This document shows, one piece after another, positions 3,472-61,563 of a DNA stretch of 64,000 nt. The DNA lies in NCBI GenBank assembly GCA_028712895.1, contig JAQTPL010000006.1, forward strand, positions 239 to 64,238, read 5' to 3'. Both the position numbers and the translations under genes were made by a program. The stretch is from a bacterium (GTDB lineage: Bacteria; CAYTYR01; UBA6262). Position 1 is the stretch's first letter, and each line of letters starts with the position of its first letter. A model generated the notes under the pieces. That model saw nothing but the letters and a program-made list of their open reading frames with translations, was not told the DNA's origin and did not search any database.

Positions 3472-3485
3472 GAAAAACCTTAACT

Positions 3486-3566
3486 AAGCTCATAGCTCGA
3501 TGCTCGTAGCTCTTAGGATAGGTTAGAAGCATTTACTATGAGCTATGAGCTACCAGCCAAGAGCTT
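3486..3566. repeat. Intercistronic heptad-word hairpin, AGCTC family (copy 1)
   Basis: Arm 3486-3516 (AAGCTCA TAGCTCG ATGCTCG TAGCTCT TAG) and arm 3536-3566 are reverse-complementary in register: 24 Watson-Crick + 1 G.U of 31 positions by hand alignment, with a 19-nt loop. It fills the proA-stop to nadD-start spacer. Confidence 0.75.
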
Positions 3567-3568
3567 TC

Positions 3569-29605: not shown

Positions 29606-29622
29606 CTAAACCTCCTAGAATC

Positions 29623-29710
29623 GTGTCACTAAAGAGTATCAATAAAACAGGGTCAAAAAAGAGGGTCAGCAAATAATTAAAATTCTTTGACACATTGACA
29701 CTCTGACACT
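29623..29710. repeat. Intercistronic word hairpin, GTCA family (copy 1)
   Basis: Left arm has four ~13-nt units (GTGTCACTAAAGA GTATCAATAAAACA GGGTCAAAAAAGA GGGTCAGC). Right arm has three ~9-nt units (TTGACACA TTGACACTC TGACACT) and ends at the mtnP stop. Related to 38193-38293. Confidence 0.7.
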
Positions 29711-38176: not shown

Positions 38177-38192
38177 TTAAACTCCAGATACT

Positions 38193-38293
38193 GGGTCACT
38201 AAGAAGTGTCAAGAAAGAGTATCACTAAAGAGGGTCAAGAAATTATAGCAATAACTTTGACACTGTTTTCACTGTGACCCTGTTCATTGATAC
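38193..38293. repeat. Intercistronic word hairpin, GTCA family (copy 2)
   Basis: Left arm GGGTCACTAAGAA GTGTCAAGAAAGA GTATCACTAAAGA GGGTCAAG; right arm TTTGACACTG TTTTCACTG TGACCCTG TTCATTGATAC. Shares GTCACTAAAGAGTATCA, AGAGGGTCA and CTTTGACAC strings with 29623-29710. Confidence 0.7.
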
Positions 38294-38298
38294 TTTTT

Positions 38299-39476: not shown

Positions 39477-40421
39477 TTATCCTTTTCTAGCTAATACTTT
39501 TTTAGCTGCAGCAACAATATCAATATCTTTTAAATGGAAAAAACGCATCAGCTCTTCCGGAGCGCCTGAGGTCCCAAAGGTATCATTCACTCCAATCATT
39601 TCCAGCGGCACCGGATAATTTTTTACGACTACTTCACTCACGGCACTGCCCAGTCCGCCATAAATCTGATGCTCCTCAGCGGTAACGATGGCTTTTGTTT
39701 CCCGGGCAGCCTGAATAATTATTTTTTCATCCAGAGGTTTTAAACTATGTATATTGATAACTCTAGCTTTGATATTTTCCTTTTCGAGTAATAAGGCGGC
39801 TTGTAATGATTCCGCCACCAGGCTGCCGCAGGCAATGATCGTTACGTCCTGTCCTTCTTTCATCAGTAATCCCTCTCCCGAAATAAATTTAGTTTCCGGA
39901 GTGGTGAGCACAGGGACAGGTTCCCGGCCCAATCTAATATAAACCGGGCCCTTCATCTCGGCTGCAGCCAGAGTCGCTTTCTTAGCTTCGAAAAAGTCAC
40001 AGGGTACAAATACGGTTAAATTCGGCAAAATCCTGGTTAAAGCAAATTCTTCCAAAGCCTGGTGACTGGCGCCATCAGGCCCGGTCAGTATCCCGCCGTG
40101 CGATCCGCCTATCTTCACATTAAGATTGCTATAACAAATCGTGGTACGCAGTTGCTCCCAGGCCCGCCCGCTGGCAAAAATAGAATAGGTGCTGGCAAAA
40201 GGGATCTTGCCGGTAAGACTCAGCCCGGCAGCTAAGCCCAAGAGGTTTTGTTCCGCTATACCGACATTGAAAAACCTTTCGGGAAATTTCTTTTTAAAAA
40301 GTTCGCTGGATGTGGAACGGCTTAAATCCGCATCAAGCACGACAATATTTTTGTTGGTAGCGCCCATTTCTATTAAAGCCTCTGAATAGCCATACCTGGT
40401 TGCTTTCTTCTCCATTTGCAC
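39477..40421 (-). CDS. Transketolase, C-terminal (pyrimidine-binding) subunit
   Basis: 314 aa, GTG start. [18 protein letters not shown]...[19 protein letters not shown] pattern. Confidence 0.9.
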
Positions 40422-40434
40422 TCCTATAAAAATA

Positions 40435-40521
40435 GTCCTCGAGTCTTCGAGTCTGGCTTAAATATTATAATTAAAACAATTCTTTGGACCCGCGGACTCG
40501 TGACCCGGGACCCGCAGACTG
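40435..40521. repeat. Intercistronic word hairpin (GTCNNCGA / GACCCG words) between the two transketolase genes
   Basis: Left arm GTCCTCGA GTCTTCGA GTCTGG (40435-40456); AT-rich centre AATATTATAATTAAAAC; right arm GGACCCGC GGACTCGT GACCCGG GACCCGC AGACTG (40486-40521) abutting the tktN stop. CGAGTC/GACTCG and GGTC/GACC pair. Confidence 0.65.
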
Positions 40522-41331
40522 TTACTCTAGTTCCTTGAGGGCTTGGGCCGTTAATTCCTTATTTGGCGCTTTACCATGCCACTCTTCCCGGTCTTCCATG
40601 AAACTTACACCTTTACCTTTTACTGTACGCGCGATGATCGCGGTTGGTTTTTCTTTGGTCTTAGCGGCTGTGGCATAAGCTTCCAGTATCTGTTTAAAAT
40701 CATGCCCTTCTATTTCTATGGTCTGCCAGCCAAAAGCTTTAAATTTATCCACGATCGGATAGACATTCATTACATCTTTGATCCTGCCGTCAATTTGCAG
40801 GTCATTATTATCAACGATACAGCAAAGGTTATCCAACCGATAATGACCAGCGCTCATCGCGGCTTCCCAAATTTGTCCTTCCTGCAGCTCCCCATCTCCG
40901 ACCAGGCAATAGACCCGAACATCACTCTGATCAAGCTTAGCCCCCAGTGCTATCCCAGTCGCTACCGATAGCCCCATGCCTAATGAACCAGTGGATACTT
41001 CTACCCCGGCCAGGTCCTGGCAACTAGGATGTCCTTGTAAACAACTGCCAAGCTTGCGCAAAGTTAAAAGTTGTTCCAGCGGGAAATACCCTAATTCAGC
41101 CAGGCAGGCATATAAGACCGGGGCACAATGCCCCTTGGAAAGAATAAAACGGTCCCGGCCCGGCCAGCGAGGGGCTTGCGGCTGTTGCCGCAGGATATTA
41201 AAAAATAAAGCGGTCATCAGGTCGGTGGCTGAAAGTGACCCACCGGGATGACCGCTGCCTGCTGCCCCCAGCATTTTTATTATATCCTGTCTGATCTTCT
41301 TAGCTTGATCCTTTAATTGTGCTATCTCCAA
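40522..41331 (-). CDS. Transketolase, N-terminal (TPP-binding) subunit
   Basis: 269 aa, TTG start behind GGGGG. GSGHPGGSLS...LSKGH...VGDGELQEGQIWEA TPP motif. Confidence 0.9.
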   Translation of the reverse strand: MEIAQLKDQAKKIRQDIIKMLGAAGSGHPGGSLSATDLMTALFFNILRQQPQAPRWPGRDRFILSKGHCAPVLYACLAELGYFPLEQLLTLRKLGSCLQGHPSCQDLAGVEVSTGSLGMGLSVATGIALGAKLDQSDVRVYCLVGDGELQEGQIWEAAMSAGHYRLDNLCCIVDNNDLQIDGRIKDVMNVYPIVDKFKAFGWQTIEIEGHDFKQILEAYATAAKTKEKPTAIIARTVKGKGVSFMEDREEWHGKAPNKELTAQALKELE

Positions 41332-41354
41332 AATAACCCCCTAAAATACAATCA

Positions 41355-41442
41355 GTTTTAAGTTTTGAGTTATAAGTGTTGAGTTATGGTTAAGATCTTC
41401 TATAATATGCTTACCTTAATTCAAAACTCAAAATTCAAATTT
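41355..41442. repeat. Intercistronic heptad-word hairpin, GTTTTGA family (copy 1)
   Basis: Left arm GTTTTAA GTTTTGA GTTATAA GTGTTGA GTTATGG; right arm CCTTAATTCAAAACTCAAAATTCAAATTT. The loop carries TATAATATGCTTACCTTAA, which is also conserved in 60590-60686. Confidence 0.75.
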
Positions 41443-41448
41443 ACCTGT

Positions 41449-41490
41449 CCCCGCGTCTTTGATTTGTCCCGTAGGGCAAATCAGCAGGGG
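41449..41490 (-). terminator. GC-rich hairpin after the response-regulator gene (terminator-like, no clear U-run)
   Basis: CCCCGCGTCTTTGATTTGTCCC GTA GGGCAAATCAGCAGGGG: inner GATTTG(T)CCC/GGGCAAATC and outer CCCCGC/GC(A)GGGG pairing. Confidence 0.35.
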
Positions 41491-41503
41491 ATAACTGCTT
41501 TTC

Positions 41504-44692: not shown

Positions 44693-46528
44693 TTATTTCT
44701 TTAAAAAGGCAAAATCGAGTACCATGTTCAAGTATTTGTATTGCTTGGGTACGCTTTCAAAGGAGATGTATTGCATGGGTATTTTTTCTTTATCGAATAC
44801 ACTATGGATAGAACGGACAAATTCTCCTTCGATCAAATTATTAGATGGCGGCGGCCCCATCCAGATTACCAGATCAATTCCCTGGCTGCGGCACAAATCT
44901 ACCATTTCGCTAAAATTCAGGTTTGAACTAGGAGCATAAGTCTGGGCAAAAGTTTTATCCAATTTGAATTTGATCTTATGTTTTTTAATGGTCTCGGCAA
45001 AATTCTTGATCATCTGGTCAAGTTCTTTGTCCTTACCGGTAGGATAAATATATCCGGTCCGCAAATTATGGGCATCGTCTCCCCTCCCCGCTGCCGCCGG
45101 CTGTGGAGGAGCCTGTTCTGAAGCAGGTAGCGGTTCCGGCGCAGGAGCTGGCTCTGACTCTATTATAGGCGGTGGTTCCGGCTCTGTTACCGGAGGTTCA
45201 TAGGCTGGTATTTCCGGTTCAACTACCTGTTCCGCTGGTTGTTCAGGAGCAGCGGGAGCTGCCTCAGATGCGCTCACGATCTCCACCGGCTGGGTCGGCT
45301 CAAAAATAATCTCTGTTTTCTCTTCAATGATCTGGGTTAAGCTCTCTTCCAGTGGTGCTAGGGTACTCATTTCTATGCCCGTAGTTTCTTCCGGCAGCAA
45401 GTCTTGCAGTAACTCTTCGGCTAAAGACTTGTTTATTTGCCGGTTAGTCAAAGAAGCGTAAGCCACGATACGGATCAGGAATCCTTCCAATTCGCGGATA
45501 TTTGATTTTAACTGTTCGGCGATAAAATACATTACTTCATCTTCAATCTGTACTTTGGTGCTGTCCGCTTTTGCTTTCAGGATCGCCACCCTGGTTTCCA
45601 AATTCGGCGACTGGATATCGGTGATCAAACCCCATTCAAAACGGGAGCGTAACCGCTCTTCCAATACGGAAATTTTCTTCGGCGGCTTGTCGCTGGCAAT
45701 AACAATCTGTTTATGGTCATCATAAAGAGCATTGAATGTATGATAAAACTCTTCTTGGGCGGCTTCAGCCTCGGATAAAAACTGCACATCATCGATCAGC
45801 AAAACATCTATTTTGCGGTATTTATTCCTGAACTCTATTATTTTGCCGTAACGGATCGCGTCTATTACTTCAGCCATAAACCGTTCAGCAGTAGTGTACA
45901 GTACCTTTGCCGTAGAATCATTTTCCAGCACAAAATGGCCAATGGCCTGCATCAAATGGGTCTTCCCTAATCCGACATCTCCGTACATAAACAGCGGATT
46001 ATATACCTTGCCCGGCATCTCGGCCACGGCCAAAGCAGCAGCCTTGGCAAAGTGATTGCTTTTCCCGACTACAAAAGTATCAAAGGTATAGCGCGGGTTT
46101 AAGCCTATTTCAGAAAACAAAGCTAGTTTCTGTTCTTCGGTCAATACTGGTTTGGTCGCTGTTTCAGCAATGGGAGAAGCAGCAATGGGAGCTGTTCCGG
46201 TAATCTCCCTGTTTATATCTTCATCAATTAAATTGTTTTCCTCTACCGGCGGTAAATATTTGGAAAAATCAAAATTGTCCGGACTTTCCTTAAAATCCTT
46301 CACTATCTCATATATTTTCTCCCGATCATCAACTTCCAGCTGATAGATATAAAATGACCAGTTGTAATCCTTCTCCCGCAAAGAGGTAGTCCTGCCGCAA
46401 CTGTAATTAAGCTTGGTTAGTACATTAGATAATTTAATGCCATCTTCCCTGTCGCCTTGCAGGACTATTTTCCAGCGGCTAGGATAATCAGCAGTAAAGC
46501 TTTCGACAAGGTCCCATTTTGTAATCAT
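44693..46528 (-). CDS. Chimeric protein: novel N-domain + DnaA-type AAA+ (domain III) + Pro/Glu-rich linker + novel C-domain; no DnaA domain IV
   Basis: 611 aa. [15 protein letters not shown], Walker [11 protein letters not shown], Walker [31 protein letters not shown] (DnaA domain III set). Residues ~405-480 are P/E/A-rich. Termini are homologous to ORF 51034..51966. GAGG SD lies before ATG 46528. Confidence 0.85.
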
Positions 46529-46580
46529 TTTTACCTCGCCTTTTCATAAAATTGAATTATGTTGCTGGCCATAAAAATAT

Positions 46581-48032
46581 TCATGTTAATAATGTATCCC
46601 TTCCTTTTTCATATTTTAAAATAAGCTGCCGGCCGGCACGGGCTTCATCGATCCGCCCAACCGGACTGGTCAACGGTGCTTTCTTCAACAGTTCCGGATT
46701 TTGTACTGCTTCTGCCGCAAGCTGTTCCAAGGCTTGAATAAAAGTATCCATGGTTTCCTTAGTCTCGGTTTCTGTCGGTTCTATCATCATGGCCTCATGG
46801 ACAATAAGCGGAAAATAGATCGTCGGTGGATGGAACCCGTAATCAATTATCCTCTTGGCAATATCCAGGGTACTGACTGACCAGGCCTGGTGAGGCGTCA
46901 TGACAAATTCATGCATACAGGTCCGGTGATAAGGAACCGGATAAAACTTTGCCAATTTATGCATTAAATAATTGGCGTTCAGCACGGCCTGACGCCCGAC
47001 CTTGGCTATGCCCTCTGCCCCCAGGGCCAAAAAATAAGCATACGCCCGGACCGCAATCAGGAAATTGCCATAAAAAGAGCGGACTTTGCCGATACTGTTG
47101 GCTTGCCGATACTCCCAAAAATAATTTTTCCCTTTTTTTATAACCTGTGGTACCGGTAAAAACGGGATAAGGTCTTTACTTGTGCCCACTGCTCCGGCAC
47201 CTGGCCCGCCACCGCCATGCGGAGTGGAAAATGTCTTGTGCAGGTTGAAATGCATTACATCAAAACCCAGTTCTGCAGGCTTGACCAATCCTAACAAAGC
47301 ATTAAAGTTCGCGCCGTCGCCATATAATAATGCCCCATTTTTATGGACCAGGTGGCTTATCTCAAGAATATTTTTTTCAAACAATCCCAAAGTATTCGGA
47401 TTTGTTAACATCAACGCGGCAACATCCAGGCCCAGATTCTGCTGCAAATCCTCAAGGTCAATATCACCTTGATTGTCACTCTTCACTTGCCTGACCTGGT
47501 ACCCGGCTAAAGCCGCCGTAGCCGGATTCGTGCCATGAGCGGTATCCGGGACAAGTATCACGTTTCGCTTTTGTTCCGGTTGGTTCTTCTGGTGATATGC
47601 TTTGATGAGCAAAATACCGGTTATTTCCCCATGCGCTCCGGCGGCGGGCTGCAAAGTCATCCCTGAAAATCCGCTGACTTCTTTTAGAAAACTCTCTAGC
47701 TCATAGATTATTTTCAAGGCGCCTTGTACACATTCTTCGGGAGAATAGGGATGGATCCCGGCCAAGCCATCAAAATCAGCTACTGTTTCATTTACCTTAG
47801 GATTATACTTCATAGTGCATGAACCTAAAGGATAAAAACCATTGTCTACGCTATAATTCAATTTGGAGAGAGCCGTAAAATGCCTGATTACATCTTGCTC
47901 ACAGGTTTGAGGTAAAGTTACTTCTTCTGCTCCTAAAAATTCGGCCGGTATATGTTTATTCACCGCTGCCGGATCGGCAGCAGGCACATAACTTGTTGGC
48001 TGTGAATGGTATTCAAAAATCACTTTTTCCAA
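46581..48032 (-). CDS. gcvPB: Glycine dehydrogenase (decarboxylating) subunit 2
   Basis: 483 aa, TTG start behind AGAGG. PLP-lysine region NLHKTFSTPHGGGGPG is typical of GcvPB. Confidence 0.95.
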   Translation of the reverse strand: MEKVIFEYHSQPTSYVPAADPAAVNKHIPAEFLGAEEVTLPQTCEQDVIRHFTALSKLNYSVDNGFYPLGSCTMKYNPKVNETVADFDGLAGIHPYSPEECVQGALKIIYELESFLKEVSGFSGMTLQPAAGAHGEITGILLIKAYHQKNQPEQKRNVILVPDTAHGTNPATAALAGYQVRQVKSDNQGDIDLEDLQQNLGLDVAALMLTNPNTLGLFEKNILEISHLVHKNGALLYGDGANFNALLGLVKPAELGFDVMHFNLHKTFSTPHGGGGPGAGAVGTSKDLIPFLPVPQVIKKGKNYFWEYRQANSIGKVRSFYGNFLIAVRAYAYFLALGAEGIAKVGRQAVLNANYLMHKLAKFYPVPYHRTCMHEFVMTPHQAWSVSTLDIAKRIIDYGFHPPTIYFPLIVHEAMMIEPTETETKETMDTFIQALEQLAAEAVQNPELLKKAPLTSPVGRIDEARAGRQLILKYEKGRDTLLT

Positions 48033-48050
48033 TTAAATAACCTCTTTAAT

Positions 48051-48085
48051 TAGCGTATAGCGTATAGCGTGTAGCGTATAGCGTA
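48051..48085. repeat. One-armed tandem heptamer array (TAGCGTA)x5 between gcvPA and gcvPB
   Basis: TAGCGTA TAGCGTA TAGCGTG TAGCGTA TAGCGTA (+TAGG) in exact 7-nt phase with one substitution. On the mRNA strand this is (UAUACGC)n, ending 5 nt before the AGAGG SD of gcvPB. No inverted partner nearby. Confidence 0.85.
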
Positions 48086-48095
48086 TAGGAAAACA

Positions 48096-49436
48096 CTAAT
48101 TCTTTTCTTTTAAGATACGGACCAGGGTGTCGATCTCGGCTTTGGTTCTTTTTTCAGTGACGCAGAATAATAATGACTTTTTAAGTTCCGGATAATATTT
48201 TTTCAACGGTAAACCGCCGATTATATTTTTTCTTAACAGCTTTTTATTCAAGGCCTCTATATTCCCGGGCGCTGTGGCTACAAATTCATTAAAAAAAGCA
48301 GTTTTAAAATTAATTTTCCAGCCTGGTATCCTGGCTACAGCAGCAGCCAGATAATGGGCTCCGGACAAAGAGGCAGTAGCCACATCTTTTAAGCCGGCAG
48401 CACCCATAGAGGAGAGATAAACACAAGCACTTAACGCGCATAAAGCCTCATTGGAACAGATATTACTGGTAGCTCGTTCACGGGGGATATGCTGTTCCCT
48501 GGTCTGTAAGGTCAGCACATAAGCACGTTGTCCCCTGTTGTCAATACTTTCTCCTACTATCCGTCCAGGCATTTTGCGCATGAATTCCTGGCGGCAGGCA
48601 AAAATTCCCAAGTACGGCCCGCCAAAAGAAACCGGTAGTCCCAATGATTGCCCTTCACCCGTAACGATATCAGCGCCGTATTCTGCCGGTTTTTGTAAAA
48701 CACCCAGGCTAACCGGGTAAATGCTGGTGACAAACAAGGCTCCCTGCTTATGGGCCATGGCCCCCAGCTGCTGGACATGTTCCAGGCAGCCGAAAAAATT
48801 CGGCTGCTGCACAACAACAGCTGCCACCTGGTCATTTAACTGGCTTTTCAAGGCAGCCAGGTCGATCAGACCTTCAATAAAAGGTATTTCCTTAATGCTA
48901 ATCCGTGAATTTTTTAAATATGTATGCACTACCTGGCGGTATTCCGGGTGAATGGCCTTAGCCACCAGGACTATATTCCTCTGGGTATGCTCACAAGCCA
49001 GGTGAATTGCCTCATAAAGCGCCGTGGCGCCATCATAGAGGCTGGCATTAGCTACGTCCATCCCGGTCAGGTTACAGATCATCGTCTGGTATTCAAAGAT
49101 CGATTGCAAGGTGCCTTGGCTTATTTCCGGCTGATAAGGAGTATACGCAGTATAAAATTCCCCCCGTTTGGTAATCACCGGTACAGTGCTGGGAATATAA
49201 TGATCATAAGCACCTGCACCTAAAAAACAGCTAAAGTCGGCTACACTGGCGTTTTGACCGGCTACTTCCCGTAGCTGCTTTTTAACTTCCAACTCACTGC
49301 CAGCAGGTGGTAACGCTAAACAGTGGCGAATGATCTTATCTTGCGGAATATCCTTCAAAAGATCTTCTGTTGAAGCTATGCCTAACGCCTGCAACATATC
49401 CTTATTATCAGCATCGGTATTGCCTATATAGTCCAT
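48096..49436 (-). CDS. gcvPA: Glycine dehydrogenase (decarboxylating) subunit 1
   Basis: 446 aa. FLGAGAYDHYIP...YTPYQPEISQG.LQ..FE.Q pattern of GcvPA. Confidence 0.95.
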   Translation of the reverse strand: MDYIGNTDADNKDMLQALGIASTEDLLKDIPQDKIIRHCLALPPAGSELEVKKQLREVAGQNASVADFSCFLGAGAYDHYIPSTVPVITKRGEFYTAYTPYQPEISQGTLQSIFEYQTMICNLTGMDVANASLYDGATALYEAIHLACEHTQRNIVLVAKAIHPEYRQVVHTYLKNSRISIKEIPFIEGLIDLAALKSQLNDQVAAVVVQQPNFFGCLEHVQQLGAMAHKQGALFVTSIYPVSLGVLQKPAEYGADIVTGEGQSLGLPVSFGGPYLGIFACRQEFMRKMPGRIVGESIDNRGQRAYVLTLQTREQHIPRERATSNICSNEALCALSACVYLSSMGAAGLKDVATASLSGAHYLAAAVARIPGWKINFKTAFFNEFVATAPGNIEALNKKLLRKNIIGGLPLKKYYPELKKSLLFCVTEKRTKAEIDTLVRILKEKN

Positions 49437-49438
49437 AA

Positions 49439-49828
49439 CTACTTAGATCCCTCACTGATTAACTTTTCATATTCTTCCGCGGACAGCAAGCTAGATAATT
49501 CCGTGGGAGCAGCTAAAGCTATTTTAATCATCCAGCCGTTAGTGTATGGTTCTTTATTGACCAATTCAGGCTGCTTGCCCAAAGCCTCATTGACACTGAC
49601 CACCATACCGCTGACCGGACTGAACAGATCACTGACCGCTTTTACGCTTTCAGCCACGCCAAAAGATTCTTGCTGTTTCAATTGTCGTTCTACCTTGGGT
49701 AATTCAACAAAGACGATGTCTCCCAGTTCTTCCTGGGCATAATCAGTAATGCCGATTACTATTGTATTATTGCCCACCGCTTTTACCCATTCATGGGATT
49801 TGCTGTATTTCAAGTCCTTTGGAACCAT
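49439..49828 (-). CDS. gcvH: Glycine cleavage system H protein
   Basis: 129 aa. Lipoyl-lysine context VAESVKAVSDLFSPVSG, N-terminal Y.KSHEWV. Confidence 0.95.
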   Translation of the reverse strand: MVPKDLKYSKSHEWVKAVGNNTIVIGITDYAQEELGDIVFVELPKVERQLKQQESFGVAESVKAVSDLFSPVSGMVVSVNEALGKQPELVNKEPYTNGWMIKIALAAPTELSSLLSAEEYEKLISEGSK

Positions 49829-49844
49829 TAAAACCTCCGGTATT

Positions 49845-49930
49845 AGCTTATTGCTCTTAGCTCATAGGTCGTAGGAAAATCTACTGATTTCTTTTTTTTC
49901 CTGCGAGCTACCAGCTACGAGCTACGAACT
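49845..49930. repeat. Intercistronic heptad-word hairpin, AGCTC family (copy 2)
   Basis: 31-nt arms 49845-49875 (AGCTTAT TGCTCTT AGCTCAT AGGTCGT AGG) and 49900-49930 (..GAGCTAC CAGCTAC GAGCTAC GAACT). 22 Watson-Crick + 2 G.U of 31 by hand. The 24-nt loop carries a T-run. Fills the gcvT-gcvH spacer. Confidence 0.75.
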
Positions 49931-49936
49931 GATTTA

Positions 49937-51037
49937 TTAGTCGCGAACATGGCTGGGGACAAAAGGCGTTTTTACTATTGTTGCCGGATATTTTTCTCCC
50001 CTGATCTCGATATTCAGCTTATTATCTAATGCAGCTTCAGCTAATCTGATATATCCCAGGCAAATACTTTTAGCCAAGGTTGGGGAAAATGTCCCGCTGG
50101 TAACCTGACCTACTATCTTCCCGTCTTGGTTAAAGATATGGAATCCATGGCGAGCGATCTGCCGGCCTTGCATGGTCAGACCAGCCAGCTTGCGTGATAG
50201 CCCGGCCTTTTTTATTTGTTCCAGGCTGGTCTTGCCAATAAAATTATCCTTCTCCAATTTTACTGCCCAGTCCAACCCAGCTTTTAGCGGATTAGTATCC
50301 TGGTCAATATCATTTCCGTACAGGGAATATTTCATTTCCAACCGCAAAATATCCCTGGCTCCCAAACCACAGGGGATGGCTCCCTGGTCAATAATGCTTT
50401 GCCAGATTTTTTCTGTATCTGGCTCCGGTTCAGGCTGGGCAAAATAAAATATTTCATAGCCTAGCTCTCCGGTATATCCGGTACGGGAAATAGTCACTGG
50501 CTTGCCGGCGACCTGCCCCTTAGCAAAATGCAAATAATCCAAAACGGCAATCTCTGGCCCGGCCAGTTTGACCATGATATCCCTGGCGCCAGGACCCTGC
50601 AGCGAAATCAGTGAAGTGCTTTCGGAAATATCATTCAACATCACATCATAAAAACTTTTTTGTTCCATCAGGTACTGGTAATCTTTTTCTGTATTCGCGG
50701 CATTTACCACCAATAGATAATTATGCCGGCTGATCTTATTAATGAACAAGTCGTCCACAATGCCGCCGTGATCATAACACATGAGACTGTAAAGACAATC
50801 TCCCGGCGCCATTACTGACACATCATTGGTCATTACCTGCTGCAGAAATTTTTCCGCCTGGTCACCGATAACGGTGATCTCTCCCATATGACAAATATCA
50901 AAGAGACCGGCTTTTTTCCGTACTGCCCAATACTCATCGATAATACTGCTATATTGCACCGGCATCAACCACCCGCCAAACTCAATCAAGCGGGCTTTAT
51001 GCTGCTGGTGCCAATGATAAAGTTTAGTTTGTTTCAA
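49937..51037 (-). CDS. gcvT: Aminomethyltransferase (glycine cleavage T protein)
   Basis: 366 aa. GGWLMPVQY, AGLFDICHMG, ISRTGYTGELGYEI motifs. Confidence 0.95.
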   Translation of the reverse strand: MKQTKLYHWHQQHKARLIEFGGWLMPVQYSSIIDEYWAVRKKAGLFDICHMGEITVIGDQAEKFLQQVMTNDVSVMAPGDCLYSLMCYDHGGIVDDLFINKISRHNYLLVVNAANTEKDYQYLMEQKSFYDVMLNDISESTSLISLQGPGARDIMVKLAGPEIAVLDYLHFAKGQVAGKPVTISRTGYTGELGYEIFYFAQPEPEPDTEKIWQSIIDQGAIPCGLGARDILRLEMKYSLYGNDIDQDTNPLKAGLDWAVKLEKDNFIGKTSLEQIKKAGLSRKLAGLTMQGRQIARHGFHIFNQDGKIVGQVTSGTFSPTLAKSICLGYIRLAEAALDNKLNIEIRGEKYPATIVKTPFVPSHVRD

Positions 51038-51966
51038 TCCTGGAAATCCCCGATCCCCCGCCCTTTGAATAAGGCGATATCAACGACCACGCTGACAAAT
51101 GTGGTTCTTAAGGCCATTTTACTGAGCGCGATCGCTTTGATCAGCACTTTCCGTTTCTTAGGCATTTTTTTAAGTAACGCCGCCAGGTTTCTAGCCTCAG
51201 GGAAAACCTGGTAATTGGGAATAAAAATCAAAAACGCTTCAATATTAAATCCCTGGTAAATTTCTACCAGATTGGCCAGATCCAACTGGGCCCTGAGAGG
51301 ATAGTTATCATCAAAAACATTTTCCAGGCTGAAAGGATGATGTTTCACTGTTTTTAAAACATCCGTTAATCCGGCGAGAAAAAGGCGGGCATTTTCCTGT
51401 TCTCCTTCGGGATATAAAATGCCAACTTTGACTTCATCTTCCTTCGGCACCAGTAACTCTTCCGGCAAATCTTTTTCCTTTTTCAGATACATCGGCTGGA
51501 TCCGGCCGACTTCCAGGGGAATCGGTTCCTCAGTCTCCTGGCCGGGCATCCTGATATCCCCGGGCAAAACAACATTCTTATGCTTGAGCGCTTCTTTGGC
51601 TTCAGCTTTACTGATCCCGCGATCGGATAAATCCTTGATCACCCCGCCAATTTCCCGGGCCAGGTTATCAGCTCTTTCCGGTGCGCCTGTTTTCTTTTTT
51701 GCCTCTGGTAATTCCTGGGCGTCAGCCACGGAAAGCCGCTTCATGAATTTTTCTACTTCCAACCGGGTTTCTTTACTGGACGTATTCAGATAAAAACCCC
51801 AATTATAATCGCCGCGAGCAGCTTTGAGTTGAAAAGGAGGCTGACAAACTTTCTCAAATTTTCCCACCACCCTAAGAACATCTTCACGATCCCCATTAAT
51901 CGATACCAGGTAGCGGTCCTGGTGTTTGTCGTCAAAATAAGATTCTATTTTCCAGCGGATAATCAT
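51034..51966 (-). CDS. Uncharacterised protein, paralogue of the N- and C-terminal domains of the DnaA-like chimera
   Basis: 310 aa. N-terminus MIIRWKIESYF..RYLVSINGDREDVLRV...GDYNWGFYL aligns with [27 protein letters not shown]...KDYNWSFYI. The C-terminal ~120 aa also align. Start overlaps the pilT stop (TAATG); stop overlaps the gcvT start (ATGA). Confidence 0.75.
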   Translation of the reverse strand: MIIRWKIESYFDDKHQDRYLVSINGDREDVLRVVGKFEKVCQPPFQLKAARGDYNWGFYLNTSSKETRLEVEKFMKRLSVADAQELPEAKKKTGAPERADNLAREIGGVIKDLSDRGISKAEAKEALKHKNVVLPGDIRMPGQETEEPIPLEVGRIQPMYLKKEKDLPEELLVPKEDEVKVGILYPEGEQENARLFLAGLTDVLKTVKHHPFSLENVFDDNYPLRAQLDLANLVEIYQGFNIEAFLIFIPNYQVFPEARNLAALLKKMPKKRKVLIKAIALSKMALRTTFVSVVVDIALFKGRGIGDFQD

Positions 51967-53075: not shown

Positions 53076-53088
53076 AAACCCCTTTTTT

Positions 53089-53320
53089 AGTGTGGTGTGT
53101 CTAATATATCTTTACATTTGCGGGAGCTATTTTTTTCTGATTCAAGGCGCGAGAAACGCCGCGGGCCTTCAGGCACGTAAGCGACGAGCAACACAGAAGC
53201 AGGGAAAAAGAGCCCCGCCCGGAGGGAAGGACGTCTTTGGCCGACTACTGCGTCGTTCCTCCTTGTATTCGGCTTAAATCCATTCCTTCAAATAAAAAGA
53301 TATATTAGACACGCCACACT
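53089..53320. repeat. 232-nt structured repeat element, copy 1 (candidate ncRNA or MITE-like element)
   Basis: 25-bp closing inverted repeat AGTGTGGTGTGTCTAATATATCTTT (53089-53113) / AAAGATATATTAGACACGCCACACT (53296-53320): 24 WC + 1 G.U. Internal helix 53120-53143 x 53196-53218 (19 WC + 2 G.U by hand). Helix 53221-53233 x 53251-53262 (11 WC). Core repeated at 55936-56155. Confidence 0.7.
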
Positions 53321-53321
53321 G

Positions 53322-58778: not shown

Positions 58779-58849
58779 GTCGTGGTTCATCGTTCGTAGT
58801 TATAGATATGTGCTTTTACGACCAACCACGAACGACTAACTACTAACGG
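58779..58849. repeat. Heptad-word hairpin overlapping the DUF1844 stop codon
   Basis: Left arm GTCGTGG TTCATCG TTCGTAG TTATAG; right arm ACGACCA ACCACGA ACGACTA ACTACTA ACGG. Perfect 8-bp core TCGTTCGT (58790-58797) / ACGAACGA (58828-58835). A separate 9-bp hairpin CCCGCCAAT/ATTGGCGGG lies at 58760-58779. Confidence 0.6.
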
Positions 58850-60565: not shown

Positions 60566-60589
60566 TGGGAAAATCCTCCTGCTAAGATC

Positions 60590-60686
60590 AGTTTTGAGTT
60601 ATAAGTTATGAGTGTTGAGTTGTGGTCAAAATCTTTCCATAATATATTTACCTTAACTCAAAACTCAAAATTCAAAACTTAAAACT
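60590..60686. repeat. Intercistronic heptad-word hairpin, GTTTTGA family (copy 2)
   Basis: Left arm AGTTTTG AGTTATA AGTTATG AGTGTTG AGTTGTG against right arm 60651-60686: 27 WC + 3 G.U of 35 by hand. The loop carries CATAATATATTTACCTTAA. Fills the hisG-gltX spacer. Confidence 0.75.
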
Positions 60687-60690
60687 GCTT

Positions 60691-61563
60691 TTAATAGATC
60701 ACTTTATTCAATGGATATTCGATAATTCCCTGGGCACCGGCCCGTTTCAGTTCCGGGATAATTTGTTTGACAATTTTTTCTTCCATGATCACTTCCAGGG
60801 CGACCCAACCTTTTTTCGTCAATCCTGAAACTGTCGGGTTTTTCAGCGCCGGCAGCACAGCCAGTATTTTCTTCAGGTTCGCGTCAGCTACATTCATTTT
60901 CAAGCCTACCATTCCTTCGGCAGCGAGGGCTCCCTTTAACAAGATGGACAGGTTTTCGATCTTTCTTTTTTTCCAAGTGTCCTGCAAGGCAGCGGCGTTG
61001 GCGATCAACCGGGTGGTTGATTGCAATATGGTATCGATGATGCGTAATTTATTAGCCCGCAAGCTGGAACCAGTTTCGGTCAGCTCGACAATCGCGTCGA
61101 CCAGGTCCGGGACCTTGGCTTCAGTCGCTCCCCAGGAAAATTCCACATCTGCTTTTACTTTGTTCTTTTGCAGATAATTTTTAACGATATTCACTACTTC
61201 CGTGGCAATACGCTTGTTTTTAAGATCTGTTACTTTATTAAAAGAAGAATTCTCACTAACTGCCAATACCCATTTCACTGGCCGATAACCGCTCTTGGCA
61301 TAGATCAACTCTGTCACTTCCTTCACTTTGGCGCCAGATTCCACGATCCAGTCATAGCCGGCCAGGCCCACGTCAAAAACCCCGTCTTCCACATACTTGG
61401 GGATCTCCTGGGTCCGGACCAGCATTATTTCCAACTCATCATCATCACAGGAGGGAAAATAACTGCGATCATTCACATATATATTTACCCCGGCTTTTTT
61501 AAATAACGCCAGGGTTGAATCCTGCAAGCTTCCCTTTGGAAATCCTAATTTTAGTTTTTTCAT
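60691..61563 (-). CDS. hisG: ATP phosphoribosyltransferase, long form with C-terminal regulatory domain
   Basis: 290 aa. [30 protein letters not shown], plus the HisG_C-like tail. Confidence 0.9.

What the first reader, a model, noticed from the sequence alone, without database searches (positions are those of the whole stretch)
48051..48085. Exact-phase (UAUACGC)x5 array on the mRNA immediately upstream of the gcvPB ribosome-binding site
Five contiguous heptamers with a single substitution occupy most of the 63-nt gcvPA-gcvPB spacer and end 5 nt from the AGAGG SD. Unlike the other word arrays there is no inverted arm, so the mRNA segment should be single-stranded and repetitive. That geometry resembles binding sites for oligomeric RNA-binding proteins (TRAP-like logic), or it could be a slippage-prone tract that tunes the stoichiometry of the two P-protein subunits.
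Basis: partly seen in the sequence, partly recalled or inferred. Interest (0 to 1): 0.55.

Follow-up and report, generated by a model that had tools for sequence, protein, structure and literature searches.

The report
Conserved heptamer array before gcvPB start
A real, unpaired run of five 7-base repeats fills a roughly 60-base insertion between two glycine-cleavage genes that normally abut; it is one of many 7-base-repeat spacer elements in this uncultured lineage, and its sequence is conserved far more than silent sites, but its function is still unknown.

Summary
On the minus-strand mRNA, 48088-48051 reads (CUAUACG)x5+CUA with one U>C change. It fills the 63-nt gap between the gcvPA stop and the gcvPB UUG start, ends 5 nt before AGAGG, has no inverted arm and is not structured.

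- **Origin:** relatives at 70-74% identity, and three closer lineages at 83% (GcvPA+PB), have no spacer. There, stop and start are 0-1 nt apart and the SD lies inside gcvPA. The array therefore sits in a derived insertion of about 60 nt, flanked by an imperfect 8-nt direct repeat.
- **Class:** six lineages carry it, with 3, 4, 4, 4, 5 and 5 units. It is the single-arm form of a lineage-wide class of heptamer arrays that fill intercistronic spacers, mostly as hairpins.
- **Not a neutral or hypermutable microsatellite:** spacers are 78-97% identical where four-fold sites are 42-68% identical. An ACGCU core is nearly invariant and two positions vary.
- **Not generic either:** it is no less structured than shuffled controls. 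Its motif occurs nowhere else in about 200 kb of clade sequence, and no complementary partner lies in the window.

Best reading (moderate confidence): a sequence-constrained, dispensable cis element next to the gcvPB ribosome-binding site, probably a multivalent site for a trans factor. A TRAP, HutP or CsrA site is excluded.

The parts
48096..49436 (-). gcvPA (glycine dehydrogenase subunit 1), stop TAG at 48098-48096
   Evidence: Pfam GDC-P, E=9e-132. The stop lies inside the inserted segment. The last 4 residues (KEKN) differ in every array-bearing lineage.
48106..48113 (-). Upstream copy of the imperfect direct repeat TTAAAAGA flanking the insertion
   Evidence: Junction comparison with array-less relatives...CTTGAAAGAAGAGGTTGTTTAAT TTG versus ...CTTAAAAGAA[insert]TTAAAGAGGTTATTTAA TTG. 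That this is a target-site-like duplication is my inference.
48089..48095 (-). U-rich linker TGTTTTC between the stop and the first unit
   Evidence: Conserved as YRTTTT(C) in all six array-bearing lineages. The same TTTT(C)-CTA motif precedes the 3' arms of the gcvT-gcvH hairpins.
48051..48088 (-). Heptamer array (CUAUACG)x5 + CUA on the mRNA; core ACGCU plus 2 variable nt
   Evidence: Orthologous arrays have 3-5 units. Per-position conservation is over 25 units.
48043..48049 (-). Downstream copy of the direct repeat (TTAAAGA), overlapping the SD
48041..48045 (-). Shine-Dalgarno AGAGG of gcvPB, 8 nt before TTG
   Evidence: Read from the sequence. It is homologous to the GAGG inside the gcvPA codons (K-E-E-V-V) of array-less relatives.
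46581..48032 (-). gcvPB (glycine dehydrogenase subunit 2), start TTG at 48032
   Evidence: Pfam GcvP2_C and GDC-P. The TTG is conserved in all 12 lineages. The GTG at 48023, used in the public annotation (480-aa P0001), is absent in L082/L168, L171 and L164.
49840..49927 (-). Context: a two-armed member of the same element class in the same operon (gcvT-gcvH spacer hairpin built of heptamers)
   Evidence: MFE -35.7 kcal/mol, z=-2.56.

Best explanation
**What it is (well supported).** It is the single-armed form of a lineage-specific class of heptamer-repeat elements that have been inserted into, and now fill, intercistronic junctions in this uncultured lineage, which some records label Elusimicrobia. 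At this locus an insertion of about 60 nt split an ancestral junction in which the gcvPA stop and the gcvPB UUG were 0-1 nt apart and the SD lay inside gcvPA codons. The insertion supplied a new gcvPA stop and left the old SD and start intact. It has been inherited in most of the clade and lost, or never fixed, in some lineages.

**How it most likely works (inferred).** The array is transcribed within the gcvTHPAPB mRNA as an unpaired leader of 3-5 tandem ACGCU-N2 sites. The last site sits 5-7 nt from the SD. Its primary sequence, not its structure or mere length, is under purifying selection. The most economical mechanism is therefore multivalent binding of a trans-acting factor, either an oligomeric or multidomain RNA-binding protein or a complementary RNA. 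By sitting inside the 30S footprint, that factor would modulate gcvPB initiation independently of gcvPA, now that stop-start coupling has been broken. The factor is unidentified.
For: - **Derived insertion.** Out-groups (70-71% GcvPA+PB identity) and in-group lineages L164, L166 and L167 have 0-1 nt between stop and start.
- **Class membership.** Period 7 dominates the tandem arrays: 7 in the 64-kb window, 16 in 97 kb of clade loci, against 26 in 1.38 Mb of other taxa. Arrays fill stop-to-SD spacers. A single-arm array also occurs upstream of the transketolase SD in L164 and L166, and the same arm is the 3' half of a hairpin in L002.
- **Selection.** Four-fold identity is 42-68% (JC distance 0.4-1.1), but spacer identity is 78-97% with gaps essentially in whole units. 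Examples are L001/L002 at 60/62 and WIN/L004 at 49/54, P<=1e-10.
- **Internal contrast.** The 9 nt of the insertion just 5' of the array, which are the new gcvPA tail codons, differ in every lineage.
- **Conserved core.** Over 25 units, positions A5, C6, G7, C1 and T2 are 24-25/25, while positions 3 and 4 vary.
- **Fixed phasing.** The last core is 5-7 nt from the SD and the first unit is 6-7 nt after the stop.
- **Unpaired.**
Against: - No binding factor is known. The motif ACGCUNNACGCU occurs nowhere else in the window or in 172 fetched loci, so there is no sign of a regulon.
- Other heptamer arrays in the lineage each have their own unit and are also conserved. A dedicated protein per array is implausible, which points to RNA pairing or to a reader-less role.
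- Three in-group lineages do without the array, so any function is dispensable.
- The evidence that the core is more conserved than the 2 variable positions rests on few independent substitutions.
- Selection is inferred from only six lineages.
- L163 may have acquired its junction by recombination: synonymous identity to L004 is 89% in the last 40 gcvPA codons, against about 62% elsewhere.
Confidence: 0.4

Rival explanations
1. Orphan arm, or tolerated by-product. The array is simply half of a heptamer-hairpin insertion element, or a local 7-nt slippage expansion. It landed in the junction, kept the SD and start intact, and persists without a function of its own. Its conservation would reflect general constraint around the ribosome-binding site, or recombinational spread.
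For: - It is a member of a lineage-wide class.
- Hairpin elements occur as dispersed copies: 41335-41460 and 60570-60695 share 84% mean column identity.
- Other junctions show the same patchy gain and loss with short flanking direct repeats, for example gcvPB-dnaA: 52 nt in the window but 2 nt in its sister L001.
- The array is absent in 3 of 9 in-group lineages, and array-bearing lineages are not monophyletic (0.2% bootstrap).
- Synonymous sites near the junction are slightly more conserved than elsewhere (70% against 61%).
Against: - The array is far more conserved than adjacent synonymous sites and than the 5' part of the same insertion.
- Other spacers in the same loci, such as transketolase N-C, are unalignable between the same lineages, so intergenic DNA is not intrinsically slow-evolving here.
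- No second copy of the unit exists in about 200 kb.
Confidence: 0.27
2. Generic translation leader. The array acts as an unstructured, A/U-rich standby or enhancer platform (ribosomal protein S1, cold-shock proteins, 70S scanning after termination at the gcvPA stop). This would restore efficient gcvPB initiation across the new 63-nt gap.
For: - The array is unpaired.
- The weak UUG start was previously served by stop-start coupling.
- Comparable proposals exist for TAACTGA repeats (PMC4679880) and for Nostoc heptamers (bioRxiv 10.1101/2022.06.06.494920).
Against: - The natural array makes neither itself nor the RBS more accessible than composition-matched shuffles in all six orthologues.
- A generic role does not predict conservation of a specific 5-nt core.
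Confidence: 0.15
3. Slippage-prone contingency tract. Frequent gain and loss of units tunes the P-protein subunit stoichiometry.
For: - Unit number differs among lineages: 3, 4, 4, 4, 5, 5.
- Heptamer SSRs are considered slippage-favoured (Mrazek 2007, as cited in PMC4679880 and PMC4692102).
Against: - The 5-unit array, including the position of the variant unit, is the same in three assemblies that differ by 1 nt or less in 2-7 kb.
- L001 and L002 have identical arrays at a JC distance of 0.62.
- 3-5 units is short for high slippage rates.
- The array lies between stop and SD, so a unit change shifts no reading frame and no promoter spacing.
Confidence: 0.06
4. DNA-level or antisense element. 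The repeats are read on double-stranded DNA (a direct-repeat binding regulator) or on the opposite strand, where they spell (UAGCGUA)n. That is NAG-N4, the spacing of HutP sites.
For: - The plus strand reads UAG-N4 at a period of 7, with AG invariant and the first base variable across lineages.
- Heptameric direct repeats are bound by some regulators (SARP-LAL; title of PMC5930380).
Against: - No promoter-like site would drive plus-strand transcription through the array, and no promoter or terminator lies in the spacer.
- Contiguous 7-bp repeats are not the 11-bp phasing of known direct-repeat regulators (from my own knowledge).
- There is no hut context.
- CGU is also invariant, which HutP spacers are not.
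Confidence: 0.07

Closest known systems
TAACTGA heptamer direct repeats of marine Beggiatoaceae, cyanobacteria and some Bacteroidetes (MacGregor 2015, PMC4679880)
   Same: Short tandem arrays (2-6 copies) of a 7-nt unit in intergenic DNA, in forward orientation just upstream of start codons, including inside operons. They are proposed to be post-transcriptional binding sites, and their function is unproven.
   Different: There, one heptamer recurs at about 170 loci and often replaces the SD. Here the unit is unique to one orthologous junction, a canonical SD follows it, neighbouring spacers carry other units, and most arrays are paired with an inverted array.
Cyanobacterial STRR heptanucleotide repeats (Calothrix/Nostoc; cited in PMC4692102) and the Nostoc heptamers near recF/recO (bioRxiv 10.1101/2022.06.06.494920)
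   Same: Tandem heptamers in intergenic regions. Deletion of the recO heptamers changed reporter output.
   Different: A few fixed units are dispersed genome-wide, often in long arrays, in a different phylum. No evidence has been reported of orthologous conservation with an invariant core.
Heptanucleotide long simple-sequence repeats (Mrazek et al. 2007, as summarised in PMC4679880 and PMC4692102) and GGGAATC repeats of Xanthomonas
   Same: Period-7 over-representation among intergenic SSRs. Occasional inverted pairs. [quoted passage not shown]
   Different: Xanthomonas arrays show extensive length and sequence variation between close relatives and can form G-quadruplexes. This array is stable, is not G-rich, and is conserved beyond synonymous sites.
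TRAP, HutP and CsrA sites (multimeric RNA-binding proteins on repeated short motifs near an SD; from my own knowledge)
   Same: The logic is the same: tandem short cores with variable spacers in unpaired mRNA, next to or overlapping the ribosome-binding site.
   Different: The motifs do not match on the mRNA strand. There is no (G/U)AG and no GGA. The period and copy number differ from TRAP. No cognate protein has been identified.

Membership tests
Heptanucleotide long SSR (LSSR) | Head-to-tail copies of a 5-11 nt unit, longer than chance allows in that genome | tested here: met
   TRF score 69, 5.4 copies. Lag-7 run score 23 against 13 or less in 100 shuffles.
Genome-wide heptamer repeat families (STRR / TAACTGA type) | The same heptamer recurs as arrays at many loci of the genome | tested here: not met
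   CTATACG arrays and ACGCTNNACGCT occur only at this junction in the 64-kb window and 172 loci. The whole genome could not be searched.
Genome-wide heptamer repeat families (STRR / TAACTGA type) | Arrays lie in intergenic DNA close upstream of start codons | tested here: met
   The array ends 5 nt before the SD and 18 nt before the TTG.
This lineage's heptamer spacer elements | 7-nt periodic array filling the stop-to-SD spacer of co-directional genes | tested here: met
This lineage's heptamer spacer elements | Second, inverted array forming a long hairpin | tested here: not met
   No inverted arm. Single-arm precedents exist in L164 and L166.
TRAP (MtrB) binding site | 9-11 (G/U)AG triplets separated by 2-3 nt on the mRNA | tested here: not met
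   The sense strand CUAUACG has no (G/U)AG. The period is 7 and there are 3-5 copies.
TRAP (MtrB) binding site | Cognate MtrB protein encoded in the genome | not testable with these tools
   Only 64 kb of the genome is available, and collection scans are exhausted.
HutP binding site | Three UAG/NAG triplets spaced by 4 nt on the regulated mRNA | tested here: not met
   The pattern exists only on the antisense (plus) strand. No promoter would drive that strand through the array.
CsrA/RsmA site | GGA cores, typically in hairpin loops, overlapping the SD | tested here: not met
   There is no GGA in the array. The only G-rich element is the SD itself.
Phase-variable contingency SSR | Copy number varies among very close strains or within populations and switches expression | tested here: not met
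   The array is identical in three near-identical assemblies and in L001/L002 at JC 0.62. Read-level data were not available.
MITE / REP-like insertion element | Terminal inverted repeats and multiple genomic copies | tested here: not met
   No TIR and no other copy.
MITE / REP-like insertion element | Target-site duplication | tested here: inconclusive
   An imperfect TTAAAAGA / TTAAAGA(G) direct repeat flanks the insertion in most lineages. It could equally be a relic of a local duplication.

The most novel reading that the evidence does not exclude
Heptamer arrays in this uncultured lineage would form a modular post-transcriptional system. SD-proximal arrays with locus-specific units are the functional modules. 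They are masked either in cis by an inverted array (the hairpins) or in trans by a complementary RNA or a periodic RNA-binding protein. Under this reading the gcvPA-gcvPB array is a trans-regulated arm that sets the alpha:beta subunit ratio of glycine decarboxylase after translational coupling was broken. The concerted replacement of units in both arms of orthologous hairpins (for example CTATCAA to CTAYGAG between L001 and the window) would then reflect a templated homogenising mechanism that has not yet been described.
Probability: 0.15. Interest if true: 0.75.

Novelty: new variant of a known kind. Interest (0 to 1): 0.45.

Why it matters
Intergenic heptamer repeats have been known since 1990 (STRR) and are over-represented in many bacteria. 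No function or reader has ever been established for them.

This locus offers an unusually clean test case:
- a short, unique array
- natural alleles with 0, 3, 4 and 5 units
- a defined ancestral state of tight stop-start coupling between two subunits that must assemble 1:1
- clear purifying selection on a 5-nt core

If a binder exists, it would be the first identified reader of a heptamer array. If none exists, the conservation itself needs explaining.

The wider class is undocumented in the searched literature for Elusimicrobia-like and Omnitrophica-like lineages. Its features are hairpins built of heptamers, dispersed copies, and gain and loss at junctions.

Tried and rejected
- **Inverted arm or long-range pairing.** None lies within +-400 nt. 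The best duplex anywhere in 64 kb is -30.6 kcal/mol, within the range of permuted-unit controls (-29 to -40).
- **Known RNA family.** Rfam at gathering score finds only two tRNAs. The permissive scan of 47900-51400 finds nothing relevant, including no glycine riboswitch there.
- **Promoter or terminator in the spacer.** None found.
- **Selection for lack of structure.** The native arrays are not more unpaired than shuffled arrays, and the RBS is not more accessible.
- **AU hairpin AAUUAAA/UUUAAUU around the SD and start**. It is not conserved in L003, L004 or L163, so I dropped it.
- **Read-through or fusion idea.** In the window the insertion is in frame (TAG ... TAA, 66 nt). Unit-number differences of 7 nt break the frame in the relatives, so there is no conserved coding potential.
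- **Strand asymmetry (G-U pairs) of the hairpin elements.** I used this to ask whether they act as RNA or DNA. Sense and antisense stabilities are mixed, so it is uninformative.
- **Recombination as the sole cause of conservation.** Synonymous identity is only mildly raised near the junction, and the 5' end of the insertion is divergent.
- **Array-bearing monophyly.** Rejected at 0.2% bootstrap. The history needs losses or recombination.
- **Metagenome scan.** It added only one out-group relative.
- **P0005.** No DNA was available; only a called gap of 56 nt.

Full report
**1. Observation**

The window's minus strand carries gcvT (51037-49937), gcvH (49828-49439), gcvPA (49436-48096) and gcvPB (48032-46581). 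All four are confirmed by Pfam.

Between the gcvPA stop (TAG, 48098-48096) and the gcvPB start (TTG, 48032) lie 63 nt. These read UGUUUUC (CUAUACG)2 CUACACG (CUAUACG)2 CUA AUUAA AGAGG UUAUUUAA.

TRF reports period 7, 5.4 copies, 93% matches and score 69. A lag-7 run score of 23 compares with a maximum of 13 over periods 4-12 in 100 dinucleotide-preserving shuffles.

There is no inverted arm nearby, and the segment folds no better than shuffles (z=+0.32).

**2. Organism and relatives**

The closest genomes are uncultured MAGs. Two are labelled Elusimicrobia and others are labelled only "bacterium" or, by automated pipelines, Clostridia.

With protein searches and exact-protein look-ups I assembled the following lineages:
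- nine in-group lineages, 78-90% pairwise GcvPA+PB identity (80-90% to the window)
- three out-group loci (L168, L171, L082), 70-71% identity to the window; L082 and L168 are 100% identical to each other
- many distant taxa, at 57% or less

Two further assemblies (L081, L162) differ from the window by 1 nt in 2.0 and 7.4 kb. They carry the identical 5-unit array.

**3. The spacer is a derived insertion**

In the out-groups and in in-group lineages L164, L166 and L167, the gcvPA stop lies 0-1 nt from the gcvPB TTG. The SD (GAGG) is part of the last gcvPA codons...AAA GAA GAG GTT GTT TAA T TTG. More distant taxa have overlapping or abutting genes too.

In the window and in L001, L002, L003, L004 and L163, about 50-65 nt are inserted between AAAGAA and GAGGTT. 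This brings a new stop, a U-rich linker and the array. The old SD-to-start segment survives downstream. The insertion is flanked by an imperfect direct repeat (TTAAAAGA ... TTAAA(A)GA).

A tenth lineage (P0005) has a called gap of 56 nt but no DNA was available.

Unit numbers are 5 (window), 4 (L001), 4 (L002), 4 (L003), 3 (L004) and 5 (L163).

A neighbour-joining tree of GcvPA+PB with 500 bootstraps puts L003+L004 outside all other in-group lineages (97%). It gives 0.2% support to monophyly of the array bearers. The history therefore needs one gain plus one or two losses, or recombinational spread. The array-less in-group lineages keep the out-group length of the GcvPA C-terminus.

**4. It belongs to a lineage-wide class**

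Period 7 is the only tandem period enriched in the window. Arrays of at least 2.8 copies number as follows:

| Sequence set | Period-7 arrays | Size |
|---|---|---|
| Window | 7 | 64 kb |
| In-group loci | 16 | 97 kb |
| Out-group loci | 4 | 40 kb |
| Unrelated taxa | 26 | 1.38 Mb |

Almost all of them fill stop-to-SD spacers of co-directional genes. Most consist of an array, a loop and the inverted array, making 25-38-bp hairpins with locus-specific units. Window examples are 3472-3568, 40422-40521, 41332-41503, 49829-49936 (gcvT-gcvH), 58780-58848 and 60566-60690.

Single-arm forms exist elsewhere. Upstream of the transketolase SD, L164 and L166 carry ATTTAGA ATTTCGT ATTTCGA ATTTAGA alone. 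L002 has the same arm as the 3' half of a hairpin, and the out-groups have a 14-27-nt spacer without any array. The UUUU(C)-CUA motif that precedes the gcvPA-gcvPB array also precedes the 3' arms of the gcvT-gcvH hairpins.

Two hairpin elements in the window are copies of one another (84% mean column identity), so at least some members are dispersed repeats.

Other junctions show the same patchy insertions with short flanking repeats. The gcvPB-dnaA gap is 52 nt in the window and 2 nt in its sister L001 and in the out-groups.

**5. The array is neither neutral nor hypermutable**

Identity at four-fold degenerate sites between array-bearing lineages is 42-68% (JC distance 0.42-1.11). The out-groups sit at about 35%, which is saturation.

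The spacers are 78-97% identical, with gaps essentially confined to whole units:

| Pair | Identical sites | P (binomial, given four-fold identity) |
|---|---|---|
| L001/L002 | 60/62 | 2e-12 |
| Window/L004 | 49/54 | 2e-13 |
| Window/L163 | 60/68 | 3e-11 |

This is not a regional effect, for three reasons:
- Synonymous sites in the adjacent 40 codons are only mildly more conserved (70% against 61%).
- The 9 nt of the insertion just upstream of the array differ in every lineage.
- The transketolase N-C spacer is unalignable between the same genomes.

Over the 25 units, positions A5, C6, G7, C1 and T2 are 24-25/25, while positions 3 and 4 vary (A19/G4/T2 and T16/A6/C3). This gives a core ACGCU with two variable nucleotides. 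The independent events behind it are few.

The last core is always 5-7 nt from the SD, and the first unit is 6-7 nt after the stop.

**6. What does not explain it**

- The native arrays are no more unpaired than composition-matched shuffles, and they do not make the RBS more accessible, in any of six orthologues. Selection for lack of structure is therefore not the explanation.
- No complementary segment exists in the 64-kb window above control level.
- The motif occurs at no other locus in the window or in 172 loci.
- There is no promoter or terminator and no Rfam family.
- Coding potential is not conserved, because 7-nt unit differences change the frame.
- On the antisense strand the array spells UAG-N4, the spacing of HutP sites. 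That strand has no promoter-like site that would drive transcription through the array, there is no hut context, and CGU is invariant as well.

**7. Mechanism**

Shown:
- A transcribed, unpaired array with constrained sequence and fixed phase.
- It lies inside the region a 30S subunit must occupy.
- It was created by an insertion that abolished stop-start coupling to a weak UUG start.
- It is dispensable in some lineages.

Inferred: the array is a multivalent binding platform for a trans factor, protein or RNA, that modulates gcvPB initiation independently of gcvPA. I give this 0.4.

| Rival | Weight |
|---|---|
| Function-less orphan arm | 0.27 |
| Generic standby or enhancer leader | 0.15 |
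| DNA-level or antisense reading | 0.07 |
| Slippage-tuned tract | 0.06 |

**8. Comparison with known systems**

The closest described phenomena are these:
- The TAACTGA direct repeats of Beggiatoaceae, cyanobacteria and Bacteroidetes, which lie just upstream of start codons (PMC4679880).
- The cyanobacterial STRR and Nostoc heptamers (PMC4692102; bioRxiv 10.1101/2022.06.06.494920).
- The general over-representation of heptanucleotide SSRs attributed to polymerase slippage (Mrazek 2007, as cited in both papers).

This case differs in several ways:
- The unit is unique to the locus.
- A canonical SD follows the array.
- The array is conserved at one orthologous junction, with an invariant core.
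- It belongs to a class whose usual form is a hairpin of two inverted heptamer arrays.

It works like TRAP, HutP or CsrA sites in logic only. The defining motifs of those families were tested and are not met.

A literature search for such elements in Elusimicrobia returned nothing relevant.

**9. Verdict**

The feature is real and non-random. It is a new variant of a known kind (intergenic heptamer arrays) with evidence of purifying selection and no identified reader. Interest is moderate (0.45). It is a good experimental entry point into the old question of what heptamer repeats do, but nothing here demonstrates regulation.

Noticed in passing
window 3472-3568, 40422-40521, 41332-41503, 49829-49936, 58780-58848, 60566-60690 (also 29606-29710 and 38177-38298, with looser periods of 8 and 9): Most intercistronic spacers of about 100 nt are filled by hairpins whose two arms are inverted arrays of locus-specific heptamers. 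The 3' arm ends a few nt before the SD. Many begin with (A)AGCAGTT and end with AACTG. No sense/antisense stability bias was found.
   Followed up: partly
window 41335-41460 and 60570-60695: These are two copies of the same heptamer-hairpin element, loop included, at two unrelated spacers (84% mean column identity). At least some of these elements are therefore dispersed repeats.
   Followed up: partly
window 49829-49936 versus L001 4106-4211, L002, L003, L004, L166, L171 (gcvT-gcvH spacer): The orthologous hairpin keeps unit TTGATAG/CTATCAA from the out-group L171 to L001, L004 and L166, although four-fold sites are saturated. In the window (TCGTAGC/CTAYGAG) and in L002/L003 (GCATATG/GCCATAA) both arms carry a different unit, and L164 and L167 lack the hairpin (17-18 nt spacers). 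Both arms have changed unit in concert. I have no explanation for the mechanism.
   Followed up: partly
window 53076-53321: A 246-nt insertion lies between deoC and the T2SSE ATPase gene. It has inverted termini of about 25 nt (CAGTGTGGCGTGTCTAATATATCTTT ... AAAGATATATTAGACACACCACACT). Relatives have 8-30 nt at this junction. It looks like a MITE.
   Followed up: no
window 46529-46580 and orthologous junctions: The gcvPB-dnaA-like junction is 2 nt (TAA AA ATG) in the out-groups, L001, L164, L166 and L167. It is 52-69 nt in the window, L002 and L004 and 20 nt in L003, and these longer spacers share a 3' segment (GAAAAGGCGAGGTAAAA). L004 has a 9-nt repeat there. The gain/loss pattern is patchy and conflicts with the gene tree, as for the gcvPA-gcvPB array.
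   Followed up: partly
window 44693-46528 (-): A 611-aa DnaA-family protein lies immediately downstream of gcvPB in all clade members. It matches TIGR00362 above cutoff, but only over model positions 83-349 of 437. There is no match to the C-terminal DNA-binding domain, and about 220 extra C-terminal residues are unexplained.
   Followed up: no
window 51034-51966 (-): A 310-aa protein with no Pfam or NCBIfam match overlaps the gcvT start by 4 nt. It is conserved upstream of gcvT in all in-group and out-group loci.
   Followed up: no
window 48023-48032: The public annotation (480-aa P0001) starts gcvPB at GTG 48023. The TTG at 48032 has the proper 8-nt SD spacing and is conserved in all relatives, whereas the GTG codon is absent in L082/L168, L171 and L164.
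   Followed up: yes
L045 7443-7550 / L109 5443-5550 (Omnitrophica MAG), L071 3069-3309, L043 11008-11178, L168 15296-15393: Paired heptamer arrays also occur next to gcv genes in other uncultured lineages (Omnitrophica and unclassified MAGs). The phenomenon is therefore wider than this clade.
   Followed up: no
window 39477-41331 (-): Transketolase is split into N- and C-terminal genes separated by a heptamer hairpin (40422-40521). The spacer is 11-23 nt in L171 and L166 and 122 nt, with a different heptamer hairpin, in L168.
   Followed up: partly
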